64,000 nucleotides of DNA from a virus. This document shows, in pieces, positions 29,485 through 34,540 of this stretch. The notes beneath the pieces are model-generated. The model was not told where the DNA came from, did not search any database, and saw only the letters and a list, made by a program, of their open reading frames with translations. The translations under genes were made by a program, and so were the position numbers. The first letter of the stretch is position 1, and every line of letters begins with the position of its first letter. The stretch covers positions 62,514-126,513 of the IMG/VR virus record IMGVR_UViG_3300013093_000022. One strand, written 5' to 3'.

Positions 29485-29822
29485 GCTTCCTCCTCGTGTT
29501 GTGTGGACAGGACGGTCTCGGTCTGGCGCTCCAGGTGGTCGCGGATCGCCCGCAGCATCACCTTGTAGGCGTCGTGGCGGTCGAAGCCCCAGCCGGTGAG
29601 GCCCAGCGGGGTGTAGGTGCAGCCCGGGCCGTCCACGCCGTCGACGAAGGCGTAGTCGCCGTCCCCGATCCAGGGCATCTTGACCTCTGTCGGGAAGGGT
29701 CGGCGGGCCAGGGTCGACCCGGCGTGCTTGGCGTGGACCTCCCGCGCCTTGCCCTCGACGACGGTCTGGACCGAAGCGCCGTTCGGGAGCCGGACGATGT
29801 AGAGGGTGTCGGGAGTGGTCAC
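29481..29822 (-). CDS. hypothetical protein
   Basis: 113 aa, coupled overlaps, AAGGAGG RBS. Confidence 0.7.
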   Translation of the reverse strand: MTTPDTLYIVRLPNGASVQTVVEGKAREVHAKHAGSTLARRPFPTEVKMPWIGDGDYAFVDGVDGPGCTYTPLGLTGWGFDRHDAYKVMLRAIRDHLERQTETVLSTQHEEEA

Positions 29823-29989
29823 GACTGCGCCTCCTTCTGGTGTAGTGCCAGCCGATCCTCGGCGTGCTCGCGGGTCTTGCCTTGGGAGACGTAGCCACAG
29901 CTACAGTGAGCCCGGTAGGGGGTCGGGTTGCGGTGGTTGCGGCCAGACTCAATGATCTTGCGAGTTTTTTCGTGGGTGTGGTTGATCAT
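29819..29989 (-). CDS. small zinc-binding protein
   Basis: Start ATG 29989, 8 nt after an ECF promoter; H...CSCG...H pattern. Confidence 0.65.
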   Translation of the reverse strand: MINHTHEKTRKIIESGRNHRNPTPYRAHCSCGYVSQGKTREHAEDRLALHQKEAQS

Positions 29990-29997
29990 GCTCATTT

Positions 29998-30025
29998 CAA
30001 CCGCAGTTGATCCCTGTTTATTCCC
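29998..30025 (-). promoter_or_regulatory. ECF-sigma-type promoter GGGAAT-N18-GTTG
   Basis: Identical spacing to the other copies. Confidence 0.75.
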
Positions 30026-30038
30026 CGATTGGGGAGAA

Positions 30039-30158
30039 TTATTTGCGCCCCTTGCCGAAGCGGTCGAGGCAACGCTCGGCAAGATGCAACAGCGAGACGG
30101 CACTGAAGGCGGCGGCCACCGCACCCACCGCCGAACCGGCGACGACCATGAGGGTCAT
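30039..30158 (-). CDS. 39-aa single-TM peptide
   Basis: MTLMVVAGSAVGAVAAAFSAVSLLHL...; ATGA-coupled. Confidence 0.55.
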   Translation of the reverse strand: MTLMVVAGSAVGAVAAAFSAVSLLHLAERCLDRFGKGRK

Positions 30159-30235
30159 CTCCTGTCCAGGGCGGCGAAGGCGAGCGACACCACCGAGAAC
30201 ACGGCGATGAACGAGAACAGGACCAGGTCGGTCAT
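30155..30235 (-). CDS. 26-aa single-TM peptide
   Basis: MTDLVLFSFIAVFSVVSLAFAALDRR; GAGAGG RBS; not in track. Confidence 0.55.
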   Translation of the reverse strand: MTDLVLFSFIAVFSVVSLAFAALDRR

Positions 30236-30247
30236 GGTGGAATCCTC

Positions 30248-30601
30248 TCAGACGGCGATCTTGGTGGCGATCATCTGGTCGCCGCACCCGGGGCACGGCT
30301 CGCCGTAGGTGTAGCTGGTGTCGAGGTCCTTGACCGACGCCCCGACCTCGGACAGGTCGTTGGGACCGGCGTCGTCCTTCCACTGGGGGTTGTAGAAGCA
30401 GCCGTGCTCCCAGACCGCCTTGATGTGCTTGCAGGTCCGGTCGGCGGGCTCGCCCTTGAAGTAGGCGTAGGCCGGGCAGTCGCAGTGGGCGAAGCCGGTC
30501 CCGGCCAGGGAGACCGTGTACACGCTGCCACCCGACCCCTGGACCGAGAAGGTGGAGTAGTACTGGGGGCAGAACCCCACGGTGACGATGTCGGCGCTCA
30601 T
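30248..30601 (-). CDS. SWIM zinc-finger protein
   Basis: Start ATG 30601; GSGGSVYTV...CDCPAY...TCKHI. Confidence 0.8.
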   Translation of the reverse strand: MSADIVTVGFCPQYYSTFSVQGSGGSVYTVSLAGTGFAHCDCPAYAYFKGEPADRTCKHIKAVWEHGCFYNPQWKDDAGPNDLSEVGASVKDLDTSYTYGEPCPGCGDQMIATKIAV

Positions 30602-30825
30602 GCTCGCTTTCCTCTCAGGTAGTCGGCGACGAACCGTTCGGCGGACTGCTTGGCCGACTCCTTGGAGGCGAAGCCCTCGCCGTGGCCGACCACGTGGGCG
30701 TCGTGGACCGACCAGCGCCACGACACGAGATCGTAGACGGCGGCCGTGACCCGGCCGATCTTGAGCTGCTCGTCCTCGTCTCCCTCCGAGTACGGCTCCC
30801 ACTCGCCGGTCAGTGTCAGATCCAT
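30598..30825 (-). CDS. hypothetical protein
   Basis: 75 aa; WRWSV...G.ASKESAKQSAE. Confidence 0.7.
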   Translation of the reverse strand: MDLTLTGEWEPYSEGDEDEQLKIGRVTAAVYDLVSWRWSVHDAHVVGHGEGFASKESAKQSAERFVADYLRGKRA

Positions 30826-30983
30826 CGCCGTCCCTCCCTGGTGGGCAGGTCCCGCTTGACGATGTGGGCGCTCTTGTCGCCCCGCCGGTAGCGGCGCTCG
30901 TAGCGCAGGTTCAGGGCCGGTGTGGGCGTGGGGAACGTGGCCAGCAGGACGCCGGCCCCGCTGTACACCTCGTAGGCGGTCAT
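30816..30983 (-). CDS. hypothetical protein
   Basis: Start revised to ATG 30983 (ATGA overlap). Confidence 0.6.
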   Translation of the reverse strand: MTAYEVYSGAGVLLATFPTPTPALNLRYERRYRRGDKSAHIVKRDLPTREGRRWI

Positions 30984-31102
30984 TTGGCGGTCCTGAGAGC
31001 GACGTGGCCGCACGAAAGGGTCATGCGGAGCCGGTCCATGCCGCCGAAGGCGTACGGCTCGGTGACGCGGGCCTGACGGCCGCACTGTGGGCATGTGGTC
31101 AT
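30980..31102 (-). CDS. 40-aa zinc-ribbon peptide
   Basis: MTTCPQCGRQ...LSCGH; strong AGGAGAGGG RBS; not in track. Confidence 0.65.
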   Translation of the reverse strand: MTTCPQCGRQARVTEPYAFGGMDRLRMTLSCGHVALRTAK

Positions 31103-31109
31103 GCTTCCC

Positions 31110-31473
31110 TCTCCTGTTGATCCTATCGTCGTGTGTGGTGCCCGAAAACTTAAGGGAGCACCCAGCCAGCCTTCCGGTTCCCCTACCCTCCCCGGATTGT
31201 GGCCACGCCCCGGCTGCTCTTGAGTACTACGTCCAACTGTTCTCCTGCTTCACTCGCGGCGGATTTCGCCCTCCGTGCCGCCTTTCGGCGACTCCCCCAC
31301 CTAAGGGGCTCGTCCTTCGTTCAGGGATCGCTCTTCAGGGGCTGCACCACTTAAGGTGTCTGTCCTGAGCCGCTTGCGGCAAAGAGTCGTGGTCGTTAGC
31401 CGTCAGGGACGCTTCTGGGGTACTTGCACGGTACCTCGCAGGTCTGGATGCTCTCTTCAGTTGTCGGTCTTAC
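31110..31473 (-). ncRNA. putative structured non-coding RNA / long 5' leader
   Basis: ~360 nt with no credible ORF between an ECF promoter and the next RBS; multiple hairpins, including a GAAA tetraloop and three CCUUARGU loop motifs. Confidence 0.6.
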
Positions 31474-31481
31474 ACACGGTC

Positions 31482-31509
31482 CAACAGAACGGGGCCCGGG
31501 TTTATTCCC
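31482..31509 (-). promoter_or_regulatory. ECF-sigma-type promoter GGGAAT-N18-GTTG
   Basis: Identical spacing; would drive the putative ncRNA. Confidence 0.75.
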
Positions 31510-31534
31510 CGGGCCCCGAACTTTCTTCCCGCCG

Positions 31535-32305
31535 CTAGTCGAACCGTTCCTGAGCGTCCTTCTGGGTGGGCTTCGGCAGGCTCGCCAGGTTGATGAAGTC
31601 GCCGCTCAGGTCCTTGCAGGCGTGGACCGGCTCACCGGCCAGCCAACGGTTGTACGTCCTGATCCAGACCGCGTACTCGTTCATCAGCGCCGTGTAGCTG
31701 CCCGTCCCCCCGATCTTCAGTGGGCGGACGTTGATCAGGCGGCGGCGCATCGCGCCGAAGGTGGCCCGCTCGGTCTCGTCGCCGCACACCCCGGTGGCGA
31801 CCCCGGTCGCGAACTCCATGTGCTTCACCGGGTCGGCACCGGCCCGGTCGAGGTGGATGTGGAGCGCCGCCAGCGCCGAGGCGGTGATCGACTTGTTCCT
31901 GCCCGAGGCCGTCTTGGTGTACGGCGACTCGTCCGACAGCGCTATCGCCCACTGGACGATCGGACGCCACTCGTCGTTGAAGACCTGGACGTAGTCGGCC
32001 ACCAGGCCCTTGTCCTGGGTGGCGACCATGCCCATCTCCTCGACGATGAACAGCCGGGCGACGGCGGCGAGCCGCCCGACCAGGGACATCCTCGCGCCCC
32101 GGGTCTGGAGGACGTTGCCGATCGTGCGGGGCTTGTTCATGTCGATCACGTCCCCGGCGGAGGGCTCAACGCCCTCGACGATCATCATCGGGACGTCCTG
32201 GGACTTGTCGTTGATGTTGACGCCCATCCCCGTGTGGGGAATTGCAGCCGTGCGCCACGGTGACAGCAGTTCCACCTGCTCCCTCGCCGTCCAGATGCGC
32301 CTCAC
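31535..32305 (-). CDS. leader peptide fused to the C-terminal part of a ParB/DGQHR-like protein
   Basis: Start likely GTG 32305 (GTGA overlap): MRRIWTAREQVELLSPWRTA, then VPMMIVEGV...DVIDMNKPRTIGNVL. Confidence 0.6.
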   Translation of the reverse strand: MRRIWTAREQVELLSPWRTAAIPHTGMGVNINDKSQDVPMMIVEGVEPSAGDVIDMNKPRTIGNVLQTRGARMSLVGRLAAVARLFIVEEMGMVATQDKGLVADYVQVFNDEWRPIVQWAIALSDESPYTKTASGRNKSITASALAALHIHLDRAGADPVKHMEFATGVATGVCGDETERATFGAMRRRLINVRPLKIGGTGSYTALMNEYAVWIRTYNRWLAGEPVHACKDLSGDFINLASLPKPTQKDAQERFD

Positions 32306-32508
32306 ACCAATTCTGGTCGCACACCGGGAACTTTCCACCCCGCGTACGTGCCCCTCGTTGACACGTAGCAGCCACCCACGACGGTCTTGCGGGGGATGTC
32401 TTTCGGGTGGCACGCCGAGTACGGTACACGGCGGTGGTGGGCCGAGGCGGGGGCGTTCGCCAGGCACACGGCGACGGCGATCAGCCTCATGAAGCGACGC
32501 CGGTTCAC
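32302..32508 (-). CDS. small protein with signal-peptide-like N-terminus
   Basis: MNRRRFMRLIAVAVCLANAPASA; AATTAGTGT motif overlaps the start. Confidence 0.45.
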   Translation of the reverse strand: MNRRRFMRLIAVAVCLANAPASAHHRRVPYSACHPKDIPRKTVVGGCYVSTRGTYAGWKVPGVRPELV

Positions 32509-32538: not shown

Positions 32539-33447
32539 TTAGGCTCGGAGAACGGCGAGAAACTGATTCTTGTTGAAGATGCGCTCCAACTCCCCCAGTC
32601 GCTGCCGATCAACCACCACCAGTGGCTCTGAGAGGTCCCAGGAGTCCCGAATCCGAGGTTGGGGACTGTTGGGGTGGTCCCAACCCTTAGTCTCGATGGC
32701 GAGCCCTTCAACTAAAAAGTCGGGACGATACTCGTGGCCGTCAAGAATAAACGGACGGTCGTCGGGCCACGGTGCCCAAGAAATATTTAAGCGAGTCAGG
32801 CAAGCGATGAATCGAATCTCGTAACCACTGTTGAGATTTACTTCACCGTGACGGTAGTGCTGTGCCCGTTTTCGGCTGTGCTGCAAGTTGGAGCATTTTA
32901 ACGAACAGAACATCATCTGCCCCGGCCACGTTCCAGGGCGGGAAAATTCTTCTTTGCACTGCTGACAGACGGCAGTCTTTCTGGGGATGGGTTTGCGGCC
33001 TGGGCGAGATGTTCGATGTTCGCTGCAGTAAATCCGGTTGTATGACCCCGTGGAGACGCCACACACCTTGCACTCTGGGTAGTGAATGCCACTTGACCGA
33101 GCAATTGCGGCGCACTTCACCGAACAGGTGTTGCGGTCCTGACGGGCGTAGTGGGTGAATTCGTTACCGCATACGGTACACGTACTGGCGGCCCTAGCTT
33201 CCTGTGCCGCCATTTTTCCTCGGCATTTTACGGAACAGGTGTTGTAGGGCTTGCTCCTGCGGTATTTGAACTCTTCGCCGCACCCTGGGCAGACCTTGAC
33301 TATCCAAGTTTCCTGAGCCTCATAAGTGGCTTTCATGTTGCGGGTGCGGAGTTCCTTCCCACACGCGGTTGAGCACGTCCGTTTTGTTCGATATCTGGGC
33401 TGCTCGAACTCGTCGCCGCAGATCTCACAATTACTTTTGTCAGACAA
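32539..33447 (-). CDS. free-standing homing-type endonuclease: tandem Cys4 zinc repeats plus PD-(D/E)xK nuclease
   Basis: Five CxxC...(C)SxxC-type repeats, then SGYE...YRPDF...IETKG; lower GC; start likely TTG 33447 after GGAGGGG. Confidence 0.8.
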   Translation of the reverse strand: MSDKSNCEICGDEFEQPRYRTKRTCSTACGKELRTRNMKATYEAQETWIVKVCPGCGEEFKYRRSKPYNTCSVKCRGKMAAQEARAASTCTVCGNEFTHYARQDRNTCSVKCAAIARSSGIHYPECKVCGVSTGSYNRIYCSEHRTSRPGRKPIPRKTAVCQQCKEEFSRPGTWPGQMMFCSLKCSNLQHSRKRAQHYRHGEVNLNSGYEIRFIACLTRLNISWAPWPDDRPFILDGHEYRPDFLVEGLAIETKGWDHPNSPQPRIRDSWDLSEPLVVVDRQRLGELERIFNKNQFLAVLRA

Positions 33448-33504
33448 AGCAAAACCCCTCCATTTCGGTTGGTTACCCAACCTTACATGAAGGGGCCTTG
33501 CTTT
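33446..33504 (-). terminator. long hairpin: capsid-gene terminator and/or RBS-sequestering structure
   Basis: AAAGCAAGGCCCCUUCAU pairs with AUGGAGGGGUUUUGCUUU (18 bp with G-U), plus an inner GGUUGG/CCAACC stem. Confidence 0.75.
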
Positions 33505-33538: not shown

Positions 33539-34540
33539 CTAGCTCTTACGAAGTATAACTATGCCGCGTGGGTTTAACACAGCCATCCCGACGAGCTCGT
33601 CCATCACCCATCCCTTGTGGAACTGCTCCACGAGGTTGTTCTCGGTGACGTCCAGGCTGTACATGACCGGGAACACGCCCAGGAAGGACGGGTCCGGGGT
33701 CAGGTACGTGGTGCCCGGGGGGATGATGATCGACTTGCCGATCTGGAACTCGCCGAACTGGACGATCCGCTCACCGGCCACGACACTGTCCTTGAAGGCC
33801 CAGCCGGTCGTGTTGATGTCCCACCTGTAGAAGTCACGGTACTCCTGCGGGTTGCACAGCAGACGGGTGCTGTCCAACATGCGCTGGTCGGTGAAGGTCA
33901 CCGCCGTGTACAGGTCGTCCGGGGACAGGTAGGTACCCGCCACCTGGATCTCGTTCGGCAGCGACCCGGTGCCCGGTGCCGAGGTCGGGTCGACCGACCG
34001 GTACTGGGCCGCCGAGACCTCCAGCAGGGTCACCAGGCGGGCGTCTTCCTGACGCATGATCGCCTGCTTCGTCATGTCCTGGGTGTACTCGACGATGTTG
34101 GACCGCAGGTAGTACAGGTCTTCCTTCTTGATCTTCGGGAAGGAGGCGATGCGGAACAGGAGGATCTCGACACGCTTGCCCTCGAAGGGCGTGATCTTGA
34201 TCTCGCCCTCGTCGCCGTGCAGGAGGTACGCCTGACCCAGGTCGTCCAGGATGTCGTACTGAATGGGCACGCCGGGGGTCAAAGTGTCCTCCAGCAGAAC
34301 ATTCCGCAGAATACCCTGGTAGCGAAGCTGAAGCTGGATCGGGCCGATCATCGACTGACCGAGGCGAACCATCCCATTCTGGCGGTCGGCCAGAATGTTC
34401 GCCAGCTTGACCTGCTTGTCGCGGGCCGACAGCTTACGCCCGCCCATCTTCCGCATCGTCGACTGCATGTCGGAGACGTACTCGTCGGACTTCTTCGCGA
34501 ACCGGCCGAAGCCGGAACCGGTAGCAACAGGAACAGCCAT
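33539..34540 (-). CDS. major capsid protein
   Basis: 333 aa, HK97-like size; follows protease/scaffold; very high GC3; ends GMAVLNPRGIV; resembles the Bxz1-type MCP. Confidence 0.88.
   Translation of the reverse strand: MAVPVATGSGFGRFAKKSDEYVSDMQSTMRKMGGRKLSARDKQVKLANILADRQNGMVRLGQSMIGPIQLQLRYQGILRNVLLEDTLTPGVPIQYDILDDLGQAYLLHGDEGEIKITPFEGKRVEILLFRIASFPKIKKEDLYYLRSNIVEYTQDMTKQAIMRQEDARLVTLLEVSAAQYRSVDPTSAPGTGSLPNEIQVAGTYLSPDDLYTAVTFTDQRMLDSTRLLCNPQEYRDFYRWDINTTGWAFKDSVVAGERIVQFGEFQIGKSIIIPPGTTYLTPDPSFLGVFPVMYSLDVTENNLVEQFHKGWVMDELVGMAVLNPRGIVILRKS

What the first reader, a model, noticed from the sequence alone, without database searches (positions are those of the whole stretch)
31110..31473. 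~360-nt structured non-coding RNA with three CCUUARGU loop motifs
Seen: the largest ORF-free gap in a densely packed window, starting right after an ECF promoter. Minus-strand hairpins include GCCG-CAAG-CGGC (31369-31380), CACC-UUAAGU-GGUG (~31345-31358), CCCC-UUAGGU-GGGG (~31295-31308), GUCGCC-GAAA-GGCGGC (31277-31292) and GGUGCUC...GGGCACC enclosing a third CCUUAAGU (31148-31155). CUGAAGAG occurs twice (31331-31338, 31453-31460). Inference: a phage ncRNA or cis-acting leader (antitermination element, protein-binding decoy or antitoxin-like RNA) at the head of a small-gene operon. I do not recognise the family.
Basis: partly seen in the sequence, partly recalled or inferred. Interest (0 to 1): 0.75.

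Follow-up and report, generated by a model that had tools for sequence, protein, structure and literature searches.

The report
New self-pairing phage noncoding RNA
The gap holds a real, transcribed and elaborately folded noncoding RNA, shared by large phages of mycobacteria-like bacteria and matching no catalogued RNA family, and one of its loops evolves in a way that implies two copies of the RNA pair with each other.

Summary
The finding is real, but its anatomy was partly misread. On the minus strand, about 31139-31469, lies a structured ncRNA with no Rfam match. It has one homologue in each of about 207 cluster C mycobacteriophage records. There it is unannotated or called as tiny hypothetical ORFs. 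It also occurs in about 30 IMG/VR contigs and in 70 of 80 metagenome loci tested. Covariation supports a long terminal helix P1, helices P2, P3, P5, P5a, P6 and P6b, and a hairpin P7. Two internal-loop strands, CUGACGGYUAACGAYCACG and GCGAYCCCUGAAYGAA, are nearly invariant. The P7 loop always carries a self-complementary 8-mer that changes between relatives while staying palindromic, even at adjacent positions. That is the signature of a symmetric intermolecular kissing loop. Four lake metatranscriptomes each hold an identical contig covering 31159-31442, at 3-7 times the depth of neighbouring genes. My reading is a trans-acting, probably P1-processed, self-dimerising phage RNA whose invariant loop is the functional site. 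The function itself is unknown. A cis-leader role, a coding role and tmRNA membership are not supported.

The parts
31139..31469 (-). Whole element as a precursor: structured ncRNA closed by terminal helix P1
   Evidence: fold and duplex searches; coordinates checked; models R1 and R2 hit 31238-31444 (79.2 bits, E 3.7e-18; the window was not in the R1 seed) and 31158-31249 (88 bits; the window was in the R2 seed)
31159..31442 (-). Stretch covered by metatranscriptome contigs (candidate mature RNA, about 284 nt)
   Evidence: contigs 31160-31430, 31165-31441, 31207-31441 and 31159-31442 in runs X3-X6, 0 mismatches, depths 16.3, 8.8, 16.7 and 37.4
31444..31469 (-). P1 5' strand (holds the first CUGAAGAG); a bulged A follows at 31443
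   Evidence: across the family 64 of 80 members pair at least 9 of the 10 innermost positions
31139..31165 (-).
31438..31442 (-). P5 5' strand (CCUGC); pairs with 31244-31248 (GCAGG)
   Evidence: helix 1: all 5 of 5 pairs have compensatory changes, 93.2% of cells paired
31428..31437 (-). Purine-rich internal loop (GAGGUAC, facing AGUGAA at 31249-31254) and P5a 5' strand CGU (pairs with GCG at 31255-31257)
   Evidence: pair 16-317: GC 17, AU 6, CG 3, UG 3, UA 1
31407..31411 (-). P2 5' strand (CGUCC); pairs with GGACG at 31311-31315
   Evidence: helices 3-5: all 7 pairs have compensatory changes
31386..31406 (-). Near-invariant internal-loop strand (consensus CUGACGGYUAACGAYCACG)
   Evidence: present in 9 of 9 distinct sequences that were found through the other strand's pattern alone
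31332..31385 (-). P3 variable domain, closed by CUCUU/AAGAG (the second CUGAAGAG is its 3' strand). It holds hairpins GCCG-CAAG-CGGC (31369-31380) and CACC-UUAAGU-GGUG (31345-31358)
   Evidence: helix 6: 5 of 8 pairs compensatory; the domain is 13-200 nt long in relatives
31316..31331 (-). Second near-invariant internal-loop strand (consensus GCGAYCCCUGAAYGAA)
   Evidence: exact in 63 of 69 distinct sequences chosen through the other strand only; 11 of 16 positions invariant
31277..31308 (-). Two hairpins specific to the sub-lineage: CCCC-UUAGGU-GGGG (31295-31308) and GUCGCC-GAAA-GGCGGC (31277-31292, GNRA loop)
   Evidence: in 7 sub-lineage members both stems covary; the loops stay UURRGU and GNRA
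31192..31213 (-). P7 hairpin: CCGG stem and a 14-nt loop with the self-complementary 8-mer GUGGCCAC (31199-31206). Proposed intermolecular pairing site
   Evidence: stem 97% paired, 4 of 4 pairs compensatory; palindrome columns 144 of 144 cells paired
31181..31224 (-). P6b (CUC 31222-31224 with GGG 31181-31183), enclosing a symmetric 8x8 purine-rich internal loop (AAGAGCAG / GGAGGGUA) and P7
   Evidence: helix 2: 3 of 3 pairs compensatory
31167..31239 (-). P6 (CAG 31237-31239 with CUG 31167-31169), closing the 3' domain next to P1
   Evidence: helix 1: 2 of 3 pairs compensatory, 91.7% paired
31490..31518 (-). Terminator-like hairpin of the upstream gene (31535-32467). Not part of the RNA
   Evidence: upstream-gene RNA contigs end at 31517-31549

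Best explanation

Proposed mechanism, step by step:
1. A precursor is transcribed on the minus strand. Its two ends pair into a long helix P1 (10-36 bp in the family).
2. P1 is probably a processing stem. Cleavage and trimming would release a body of about 285 nt.
3. The body has two domains joined at a three-way junction. The 5' domain (P5, P5a, P2, P3) presents a large, nearly invariant internal loop of about 17 + 13 nt. In many members, though not in the window's own sub-lineage, a kink-turn-like module flanks it.
4. The 3' domain (P6, P6b, P7) ends in a hairpin whose loop holds a self-complementary 8-mer. Through it, two RNA molecules pair symmetrically, as a kissing loop or an extended duplex.
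5. The dimer would therefore display two copies of the invariant loop. I take that loop to be the functional site, most likely a binding site for a highly conserved host factor.

Shown here: the family, the structure, the presence in RNA libraries, and the palindrome-preserving evolution. Inferred: the processing, the dimer and the binding role.

My odds: real expressed structured RNA 0.95; intermolecular pairing through the P7 loop 0.7; P1 as a processing stem 0.5; invariant loop binds a conserved host macromolecule 0.35 (catalysis about 0.1, small-molecule sensing about 0.1).
For: Family.
- An 81-nt block is 85.7% identical in 202 phage records, and conserved blocks lie in the same order along about 400 nt.
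- Exact-motif scans gave 23 and then 31 IMG/VR loci. The metagenome scan gave at least 119 stretches, of which 80 were returned as loci.
- Model R1, built from 15 sequences without the window, hits the window at 31238-31444 (79.2 bits, E 3.7e-18). It gave 39 matches over 43 sources and 73 matches in 70 of 80 metagenome loci.

Structure.
- 5' domain: 94.3% of 653 cells are paired against 63.3% in shuffles and 29.5-39.4% with partners slid. 18 of 22 pairs have compensatory changes. The covariation score is 0.665 against 0.154, reached by 0 of 500 shuffles (this alignment was fitted to the model).
- 3' domain, on a plain MAFFT alignment of 36 sequences: 95.6% against 69.9%, 12 of 14 pairs compensatory, 0 of 500 shuffles.
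- P1: 64 of 80 members pair at least 9 of the 10 innermost positions (40 pair all 10), against 70 of 400 and 4 of 400 with a shuffled arm.

Strand.
- GNRA loops, GA motifs and upstream promoter-like sites occur only on this strand.
- G-U pairs outnumber A-C cells 39 to 18.

Expression.
- 21 lake-water metatranscriptome runs hold 5-25% of the words of a 4-kb stretch.
- Each of the 4 runs laid has one 100%-identical contig inside the RNA, at depth 8.8-37.4. Contigs of the flanking genes have depth 2-5.5, and 29500-30437 and 32716-33117 have zero cover.

Processing hint.
- Three contigs start at 31441 or 31442, the first bases of P5, just after the bulged A. Two end at 31159 or 31160.
- 0 of 64 members have a terminator-like site after P1.

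Dimer.
- In the P7 loop the four palindrome 'pairs' are standard pairs in 144 of 144 cells. This includes adjacent columns 51-52 (GC 23, CG 13) and columns 50-53 (GC 27, UA 8, CG 1), which cannot pair within one chain.
- Near-identical RNAs differ in the palindrome. L030 and L032 differ at 7 of 266 positions, 4 of them turning GGCC into CCGG. L016 and L072 differ at 10 of 260, 2 of them turning CG into GC.
- In two contigs with tandem paralogues, both copies share one palindrome (GCGGCCGC in one contig, GUGCGCAC in the other) although their internal loops differ.
- Kretsch et al. 2025 used the same argument for the solved OLE and GOLLD bridges (PMC12286853, passages read).
- The extended duplex of two P7 hairpins is computed at -34.5 kcal/mol, against 2 x -7.7 for the monomers.

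Functional loop.
- GCGAYCCCUGAAYGAA is exact in 63 of 69 distinct sequences chosen only by the other strand's motif.
- The other strand's motif is present in 9 of 9 distinct sequences chosen only by this one.
Against: - No experiment shows a dimer, and the palindrome argument is comparative only. In a minority of members the P7 region is a perfect palindromic hairpin with a UGCA tetraloop. That could simply be a hairpin.
- The 36 sequences were chosen from 46 with a compact 3' domain. I dropped 3 near-duplicates and 7 with a divergent P7 region before the count.
- Identity of the paralogues' palindromes could come from gene conversion.
- Logan contigs cannot show true RNA ends, strand or level. 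The tool rates shared contig ends as a weak hint only, and DNA carry-over is excluded only by the uneven cover.
- No promoter was found for the window's own copy. Only 11 of 78 members have a good sigma-70-type site upstream, against 5 of 390 shuffles.
- The kink-turn-like parse fits only 39 of 77 sequences and does not fit the window.
- No partner, target or phenotype is known.
- A related Gordonia phage (capsid protein 80.5% identical) has no copy by either model. The RNA is therefore dispensable for this virus type.
Confidence: 0.6

Rival explanations
1. It is a monomeric structured RNA, such as a protein sponge, scaffold or ribozyme. The P7 palindrome is only the top of an ordinary hairpin and no intermolecular pairing occurs.
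For: Some members have a fully palindromic hairpin with a UGCA tetraloop that folds well on its own. RNAalifold also places two intramolecular pairs inside the loop. No physical data exist.
Against: An ordinary hairpin does not need its central four loop bases to be self-complementary. Yet adjacent columns 51-52 are complementary in 36 of 36 sequences with two types, and columns 50-53 in 36 of 36 with three types. Recent switches keep the palindrome.
Confidence: 0.2
2. It is a cis-acting leader (riboswitch, antitermination or translational control element) of the small genes downstream.
For: In the window the element ends 36 nt before a ribosome-binding site and the ATG at 31102. A sub-group of weaker R1 hits is followed directly by a ribosome-binding site and an ATG.
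Against: No downstream gene family is shared among 33 loci. 0 of 64 members have a terminator-like platform. The RNA contigs stop at 31159-31207, and runs X3, X5 and X6 have zero cover from 30438 to 31107. Some members have their own promoter-like site and lie far from the next gene.
Confidence: 0.07
3. The palindrome and the conserved blocks act at the DNA level, for example as an operator for a dimeric protein, a recombination site or an origin site. The RNA structure would then be incidental.
For: 8-10-bp perfect palindromes are typical sites for dimeric DNA-binding proteins. A gene like an HNH endonuclease lies 1 kb upstream in the window.
Against: The palindrome's sequence changes (at least 8 different words) while its symmetry is kept. 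That fits base pairing, not recognition by a protein. More than 30 other base pairs covary as RNA helices with G-U pairs. The region is abundant in RNA libraries. No neighbouring gene is conserved.
Confidence: 0.04
4. It encodes small proteins, as annotated in many cluster C1 phages (for example genes 66 and 67 of phage Asterius).
For: Annotated CDSs of 25 and 87 codons overlap the homologous region in Asterius and in many relatives.
Against: Other curated records of the same region carry no gene. The longest sense ORF has a median of 37 aa, and only 12 of 80 members reach 60 aa. The window has no minus-strand ORF of 30 aa or more here. Conserved blocks are separated by insertions and deletions of arbitrary length, and variation is compensatory in helices.
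Confidence: 0.02
5. It is a degenerate or split tmRNA or tRNA-like RNA. The triplets GCU AAC GAC in the invariant strand recall the start of tmRNA tags (recalled, not from a call).
For: Its size is similar to tmRNA. It occurs in phages that also carry tRNAs and a tmRNA (Momo genome note, abstract seen in the listing). tmRNA or tRNA-like genes lie within 0.1-1 kb downstream in 3 of 25 loci.
Against: ARAGORN finds nothing in the window and nothing overlapping the element in 25 loci. There is no Rfam tmRNA match even at E up to 10. I saw no acceptor or T-arm. Read by eye, the frames after GCU AAC GAC differ in length and ending. Cluster C1 phages have a separate annotated tmRNA.
Confidence: 0.02

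Closest known systems
GOLLD, ROOL and OLE 'ornate' large RNAs (homo-oligomeric RNA-only complexes; Kretsch et al. 2025, PMC12286853, passages read)
   Same: It is carried by phages, is large and many-helixed, and has no known protein partner or function. It has a hairpin loop whose internal palindrome switches between self-complementary words. That signature was used in that paper to support symmetric intermolecular kissing loops in OLE and GOLLD.
   Different: It matches none of their Rfam models. It is smaller, about 285-450 nt, with a different architecture: a long terminal stem, a three-way junction and one huge invariant internal loop. It is only rarely next to tRNA genes (3 of 25 loci). 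Its stoichiometry is unknown. Most members have one symmetric loop, which predicts a dimer rather than a cage.
Retroviral dimer-initiation hairpins such as HIV-1 DIS (recalled, not tested; general review PMC7357161 seen only in the listing)
   Same: A palindromic loop flanked by purines, able to form a kissing complex or an extended duplex. Different lineages carry different palindromes.
   Different: Those hairpins dimerise a viral RNA genome for packaging. This is a small noncoding transcript of a dsDNA phage.
phi29 pRNA (recalled)
   Same: A phage-encoded structured RNA that multimerises by loop-loop base pairing.
   Different: Here one loop is self-complementary. There is no Rfam match and no constant link to packaging genes.
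tmRNA
   Same: Similar size, occurrence in the same phages, and three triplets that recall the start of a tag.
   Different: No tRNA-like domain, no conserved tag frame, no ARAGORN or Rfam match.
Processing stems of rRNA and other stable-RNA precursors cut by RNase III (recalled)
   Same: A long helix formed by the 5' and 3' flanks of the mature RNA. The RNA contigs lack the 5' arm and most of the 3' arm.
   Different: Cleavage is not shown. The contig ends are not the 2-nt staggered pair expected straight after an RNase III cut.
Recurrent RNA modules: kink-turn, loop E / bulged-G (AGUA/GAA), GNRA tetraloop (motif definitions recalled)
   Same: A 3-bp stem, a 3-nt bulge and tandem GA next to P2 in 39 of 77 members, with covariation in the 3-bp stem. 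AGUA/GAA-type and symmetric purine-rich internal loops. GNRA loops on a covarying stem in the window's sub-lineage.
   Different: These are building blocks, not families. None has been probed here, and the window's own copy lacks the kink-turn-like arrangement.

Membership tests
Any Rfam 15 family | Covariance-model score at or above the family's gathering score | tested here: not met
   0 matches in the 64-kb window. The best sub-threshold match in 30900-31700 scored 18.9 bits against a cut-off of 50. In 15 homologous loci the only match was a tmRNA elsewhere in L009.
tmRNA | tRNA-like domain (acceptor stem, T-arm, 3' CCA) | tested here: not met
   ARAGORN: 0 genes in the window and none overlapping the element in 25 loci. 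No Rfam tmRNA-clan match at E up to 10.
tmRNA | Conserved tag reading frame after a resume codon | tested here: not met
   Read by eye: the frames after GCU AAC GAC differ in length and in their last residues. The region is the covarying helix P3.
GOLLD / ROOL / OLE | Sequence and structure homology to the family model | tested here: not met
GOLLD / ROOL / OLE (works like) | Symmetric intermolecular kissing loop shown by palindrome-preserving covariation | tested here: met
   (144 of 144 cells paired; adjacent columns GC 23, CG 13). Comparative evidence only, no structure.
GOLLD / ROOL / OLE (works like) | Location near tRNA islands in phages | tested here: inconclusive
   A tRNA or tmRNA lies within about 1 kb in 3 of 25 loci. 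There are none in the 64-kb window.
Riboswitch / cis-regulatory leader | Constant class of downstream gene and an expression platform | tested here: not met
   No shared neighbouring gene in 33 loci. 0 of 64 members have a terminator-like site.
Y RNA / YrlA | Partner Ro/Rsr (TROVE) protein in the same genome; tRNA-like module | tested here: not met
   No TROVE match in the 126.5-kb virus record, which is 84% complete. No Rfam match.
Kink-turn module | Canonical stem, 3-nt bulge, tandem G-A/A-G, non-canonical stem | tested here: inconclusive
   It fits 39 of 77 distinct members, with covariation in the 3-bp stem. It does not fit the window's copy, where two hairpins are inserted.
Protein-coding gene | Conserved open reading frame | tested here: not met
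RNase III-processed precursor | Cleavage in the long terminal helix | not testable with these tools
   The only evidence is contig ends at 31441/31442 and 31159/31160. Raw stranded reads or an rnc mutant are needed.

The most novel reading that the evidence does not exclude
These RNAs are a new class of natural RNA-only assemblies in a genetically tractable phage-host pair. The P7 palindrome would be an evolvable 'address' that makes dimers. Where a second palindromic loop exists (GUCAUGAC in the three C2-type members), or where tandem paralogues share one address, it would make mixed or higher-order complexes. The scaffold would be modular: the same dimerisation domain carries different 'effector' internal loops in paralogues. 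Rapid palindrome switching between near-identical phages would keep co-infecting relatives from cross-assembling. The invariant loop would be a catalytic site or a site that captures a host factor.
Probability: 0.3. Interest if true: 0.88.

Novelty: new variant of a known kind. Interest (0 to 1): 0.77.

Why it matters
Cluster C mycobacteriophages are among the most sequenced and most taught phages. Even so, this 300-450-nt locus is left blank or annotated as tiny hypothetical proteins in about 200 genomes.

If the reading is right, it corrects those annotations. It also adds an abundant, widespread RNA family (soil, lake and other metagenomes) to the short list of large structured phage RNAs. 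And it offers a natural RNA with predicted symmetric self-association in a system where genetics is routine (Mycobacterium smegmatis and its lytic phages).

The pairing of a near-invariant loop with a fast-switching palindrome gives two clean handles for experiment. It bears directly on an open question: why do phages carry ornate RNAs, and what is RNA quaternary structure for?

Tried and rejected
- Rfam at gathering score and at E up to 10: nothing.
- ARAGORN: nothing at the element.
- Single-sequence folding on both strands: not informative.
- Sigma-70 promoter scan of the window: none. The 'ECF promoter' could not be verified.
- Conserved neighbouring genes: none.
- Pfam on 7 neighbouring ORFs: no family. 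PHROGs gave only the major head protein, an HNH-like protein and one family of unknown function.
- TROVE/Ro partner in the virus record: none.
- Terminator after P1: 0 of 64 members, against 2 of 320 shuffles.
- Second copy in the window's own virus: none.
- Copy in the related Gordonia phage Pupper with R1 and R2: none. For R2 alone the tool warns that an empty answer shows little.
- Genome scan of 185,579 species for the 19-nt motif: 6 stretches. Only one is a strong model hit, identical in score to a viral contig, and one is weak. The motif is therefore neither a copy nor an exact antisense of a cellular gene. Shorter complementarity to host RNAs was not tested.
- My first automatic search for P7 by its 3' flank failed for 37 of 83 sequences. 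I replaced it with the alignment.
P1 was tested by a script instead.
- A pseudoknot or loop-partner for the UURRGU hairpin loop: I looked by eye and saw no consistent covariation.
- Literature: searches found no description of this RNA (one search was badly posed and gave only unrelated papers). Term look-ups in two 2026 preprints on noncoding families found nothing relevant.
- Parts of the 4-kb stretch without RNA cover were used only as a contrast to the covered part.
Full report
**What is at the coordinates.**
All genes around the finding run on the minus strand. Between the stop of a 310-codon gene (31535-32467) and the ATG of a 40-codon gene (31102) there is no minus-strand ORF of 30 codons or more. 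Three of the window's four CCTTARGT words and two of its five CTGAAGAG words lie here, where about one per 64 kb is expected. Rfam gives nothing at gathering scores and only noise at E up to 10. ARAGORN finds no tRNA or tmRNA in the window. Folding the single sequence is only marginally better than shuffles and is equally good on both strands. The window alone therefore cannot settle the matter.

**Relatives.**
- The window is the second half of a 126.5-kb IMG/VR virus record.
- Its major head protein is 81-82% identical to that of cluster C mycobacteriophages.
- A blastn of the gap found an 81-nt block at 85.7% identity in 202 phage records, all of Mycobacterium or Mycolicibacterium.
- A pairwise alignment with phage Asterius shows conserved blocks in the same order over about 400 nt, separated by unalignable stretches of different length.
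- In Asterius the region carries two tiny 'hypothetical protein' CDSs. In other C1 records and in the C2 phage ScoobyDoobyDoo it is an unannotated gap of about 540 nt.
- Two conserved words, used as exact patterns, gave 23 and 31 IMG/VR loci. The metagenome scan gave at least 119 stretches, of which 80 were returned as loci.
- Among 185,579 species genomes there were only 6 stretches. Only one of them is a strong model hit, with the same score as two viral contigs.
- Among 50,697 isolated phages, only cluster C mycobacteriophages carry the motif (207 records).
- A related Gordonia phage has no copy by either model.

**Structure.**
The architecture came from anchored comparison, RNAalifold and two covariance models.
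- *P1.* A long terminal helix pairs the two ends. In the window this is 31444-31469 with 31139-31165.
- *Junction.* After a bulged A, P5, P6 and P1 meet at a three-way junction.
- *5' domain.* P5 leads through a purine-rich internal loop and P5a to P2. P2 closes a very large internal loop whose two strands are nearly invariant (CUGACGGYUAACGAYCACG and GCGAYCCCUGAAYGAA). From this loop rises P3, a hypervariable domain of 13-200 nt.
- *3' domain.* P6 and P6b enclose a symmetric 8x8 purine-rich loop and the hairpin P7.

Model R1 (5' domain, 15 seed sequences, window not included) finds the window at 31238-31444 with 79.2 bits, one match per viral locus, and 73 matches in 70 of 80 metagenome loci.

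| Test | Cells paired | Shuffled | Slid | Compensatory pairs | Shuffles reaching the score |
|---|---|---|---|---|---|
| 5' domain, model-fitted alignment, 32 distinct sequences | 94.3% | 63.3% | 29.5-39.4% | 18 of 22 | 0 of 500 |
| 3' domain, plain MAFFT alignment, 36 sequences | 95.6% | 69.9% | 33.0-54.0% | 12 of 14 | 0 of 500 |

P1 could not be aligned because its sequence differs everywhere. A scan anchored at its inner end finds at least 9 of 10 pairs in 64 of 80 members, against 70 of 400 with a shuffled arm. All 10 pair in 40 of 80, against 4 of 400. Helix lengths are 10-36 bp.

The strand is fixed by several observations:
- GNRA tetraloops and GA motifs appear only on this strand.
- G-U pairs outnumber A-C cells 39 to 18.
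- Promoter-like sites lie upstream in 11 of 78 members, against 5 of 390 shuffles.

**Modules.**
In 39 of 77 distinct members, the base of P2 fits a kink-turn-like arrangement: a 3-bp stem that covaries, a 3-nt bulge, and GA facing GA. The window's own sub-lineage (7 sequences) does not fit. It has two hairpins inserted there, CCCC-UUAGGU-GGGG and GUCGCC-GAAA-GGCGGC. Their stems covary, and their loops stay UURRGU and GNRA. Several AGUA/GAA-type internal loops recall loop E. That label is recalled, not tested.

**The invariant loop.**
The scans selected on one motif at a time, so conservation of the other motif is an unbiased measure. The 16-nt strand is exact in 63 of 69 distinct sequences chosen by the 19-nt strand, and 11 of its 16 positions never vary. 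The 19-nt strand is present in 9 of 9 distinct sequences chosen by the 16-nt one. Flanking helices differ at almost every position, so this is selection on the loop itself.

**The palindrome.**
The 14-nt P7 loop holds an 8-mer that is self-complementary in every one of the 36 aligned sequences (144 of 144 cells). It takes many forms: GUGCGCAC, GUGGCCAC, GGUGCACC, GCUGCAGC, GUUGCAAC, GUCCGGAC, GCGGCCGC, and GGUGCAUC with a wobble.
- Columns 51-52 are adjacent, and columns 50-53 enclose only two bases. Neither can pair within one chain. Yet they switch GC/CG (23/13) and GC/UA/CG (27/8/1) in step.
- Near-identical RNAs differ there. L030 and L032 have 7 differences in 266 positions, 4 of which turn GGCC into CCGG. 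L016 and L072 have 10 in 260, 2 of which turn CG into GC.
- Two contigs carry tandem paralogues whose internal loops differ but whose palindromes are identical within a contig and different between contigs.
- Kretsch et al. 2025 used the same reasoning, and confirmed it by cryo-EM, for symmetric kissing loops of OLE and GOLLD (PMC12286853, passages read).
- An extended duplex of two window P7 hairpins is computed at -34.5 kcal/mol against -15.4 for two monomers.

Caveats:
- The 36 sequences were chosen from 46 with a compact 3' domain.
- Seven divergent sequences were left out. By eye they also have palindromic centres, mostly UGCA, but some of them could be plain hairpins.
- Gene conversion could explain the identity between paralogues.

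**Expression.**
A 4-kb stretch around the element has words in 21 lake-water metatranscriptome runs. The 24 rows carry 24 study codes, which may be one campaign. In the four runs laid, each has one contig with no mismatch inside the element: 31160-31430, 31165-31441, 31207-31441 and 31159-31442. Their depths are 16.3, 8.8, 16.7 and 37.4. Contigs of the upstream gene have depth 2-5.5, and long stretches have no cover at all. Uneven cover argues against DNA carry-over.

Three contigs begin at the first bases of P5, just after the bulged A, and two end 6-7 nt into the 3' arm of P1. Together with the lack of terminators after P1 (0 of 64), this suggests that P1 is a processing stem. Contigs cannot prove ends, strand or level, so this stays a weak hint.

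**What it is not.**
- *A coding gene.* The median longest sense ORF is 37 aa, and no frame is shared.
- *A cis-leader.* There is no constant neighbour and no expression platform, and the locus position differs: about 2 kb past the capsid gene here, at about 21 kb in C1 phages and about 4 kb in C2 phages, whose capsid genes lie at about 47-51 kb.
- *A tmRNA.* There is no tRNA-like domain, and C1 phages have a separate tmRNA (Momo abstract in the listing).
- *A Y RNA.* No Ro gene is present.
- *A DNA site.* The palindrome's sequence varies while its symmetry is kept.

**Verdict.**
This is a genuine, expressed, highly structured phage RNA family that I could not find in Rfam 15 or in the searchable literature. 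An unnamed entry in the closed supplements of Fremin et al. 2023 cannot be excluded.

The best-supported mechanism is a trans-acting RNA that is released from a long-stem precursor, pairs with a second copy through the P7 palindrome, and uses the invariant internal loop as its working surface. What that surface binds or does is not known. I rate it a new family within the known kind of ornate, self-associating phage RNAs, with an interest score of about 0.77.

Noticed in passing
L079 5199-5413 and 4927-5149 (minus strand); L093 2146-2361 and 2414-2635 (minus strand): Two contigs carry two copies of the RNA head to tail. The upstream copy has the same scaffold and the same P7 palindrome as its neighbour, but a different sequence in place of the two invariant loop strands. 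This suggests a modular scaffold with exchangeable 'effector' loops.
   Followed up: partly
L013, L014, L037 (Mycobacterium phage ScoobyDoobyDoo, about 3255-3290 of L037): C2-type members have an extra hairpin in the 3' domain. Its 8-nt loop holds a second self-complementary word (GUCAUGAC with its closing pair). It is the same word in all three, so there is no covariation to test it.
   Followed up: partly
L053, L073, L085, L103, L104, L109, L113: This sub-group of weaker R1 hits (53-77 bits) lacks the usual 3' domain. After P5 comes a short hairpin with a loop of the type UCGUGCAAG, followed directly by a ribosome-binding site and an ATG. It may be a cis-acting or truncated variant.
   Followed up: no
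L001 2981-3315 (Mycobacterium phage Asterius genes 66 and 67) and the same place in many C1 records: Annotated hypothetical protein genes of 25 and 87 codons lie inside the RNA and are probably not genes. Other records of the same sequence leave the region blank.
   Followed up: partly
L009 10219-10616 (minus); L021 284-609 (minus); L018 629-712 (plus): ARAGORN calls tmRNA genes 0.3-1 kb downstream of the RNA in two loci. Rfam sees only an 83-nt match spanning the ends of the tmRNA model in L009. In L018 ARAGORN calls an odd tRNA-Tyr (anticodon ATA) about 80 nt after the RNA. T-arm-like words also follow the RNA in L003 and L009.
   Followed up: no
window 32539-33480 (minus): A 313-codon ORF with PHROG matches to HNH endonucleases lies between the major head gene (33539-34540) and the gene upstream of the RNA. 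It might be a homing-endonuclease-like insertion in the structural region.
   Followed up: no
window 30980-31102 (minus): The 40-codon ORF right after the RNA has CxxC ... CxH spacing, like a small zinc ribbon. It has no Pfam or PHROG match and is not conserved next to the RNA in other loci.
   Followed up: partly
outer part of P1 in many members (window 31459-31466 with about 31142-31150; L016, L024, L028, L033, L045, L098): The outer part of P1 is conserved in sequence in distant members: (U/C)GACAACU on the 5' arm and AGUUGUC(A/G) on the 3' arm. The inner part varies freely. As DNA the 5' arm often reads TTGACA. The reason is unknown; it may be a processing signal.
   Followed up: no
W01 (Gordonia phage Pupper, whole record): This phage has a capsid protein 80.5% identical to the window's, yet it has no match to either RNA model. 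The RNA's distribution within this virus group is therefore patchy.
   Followed up: partly
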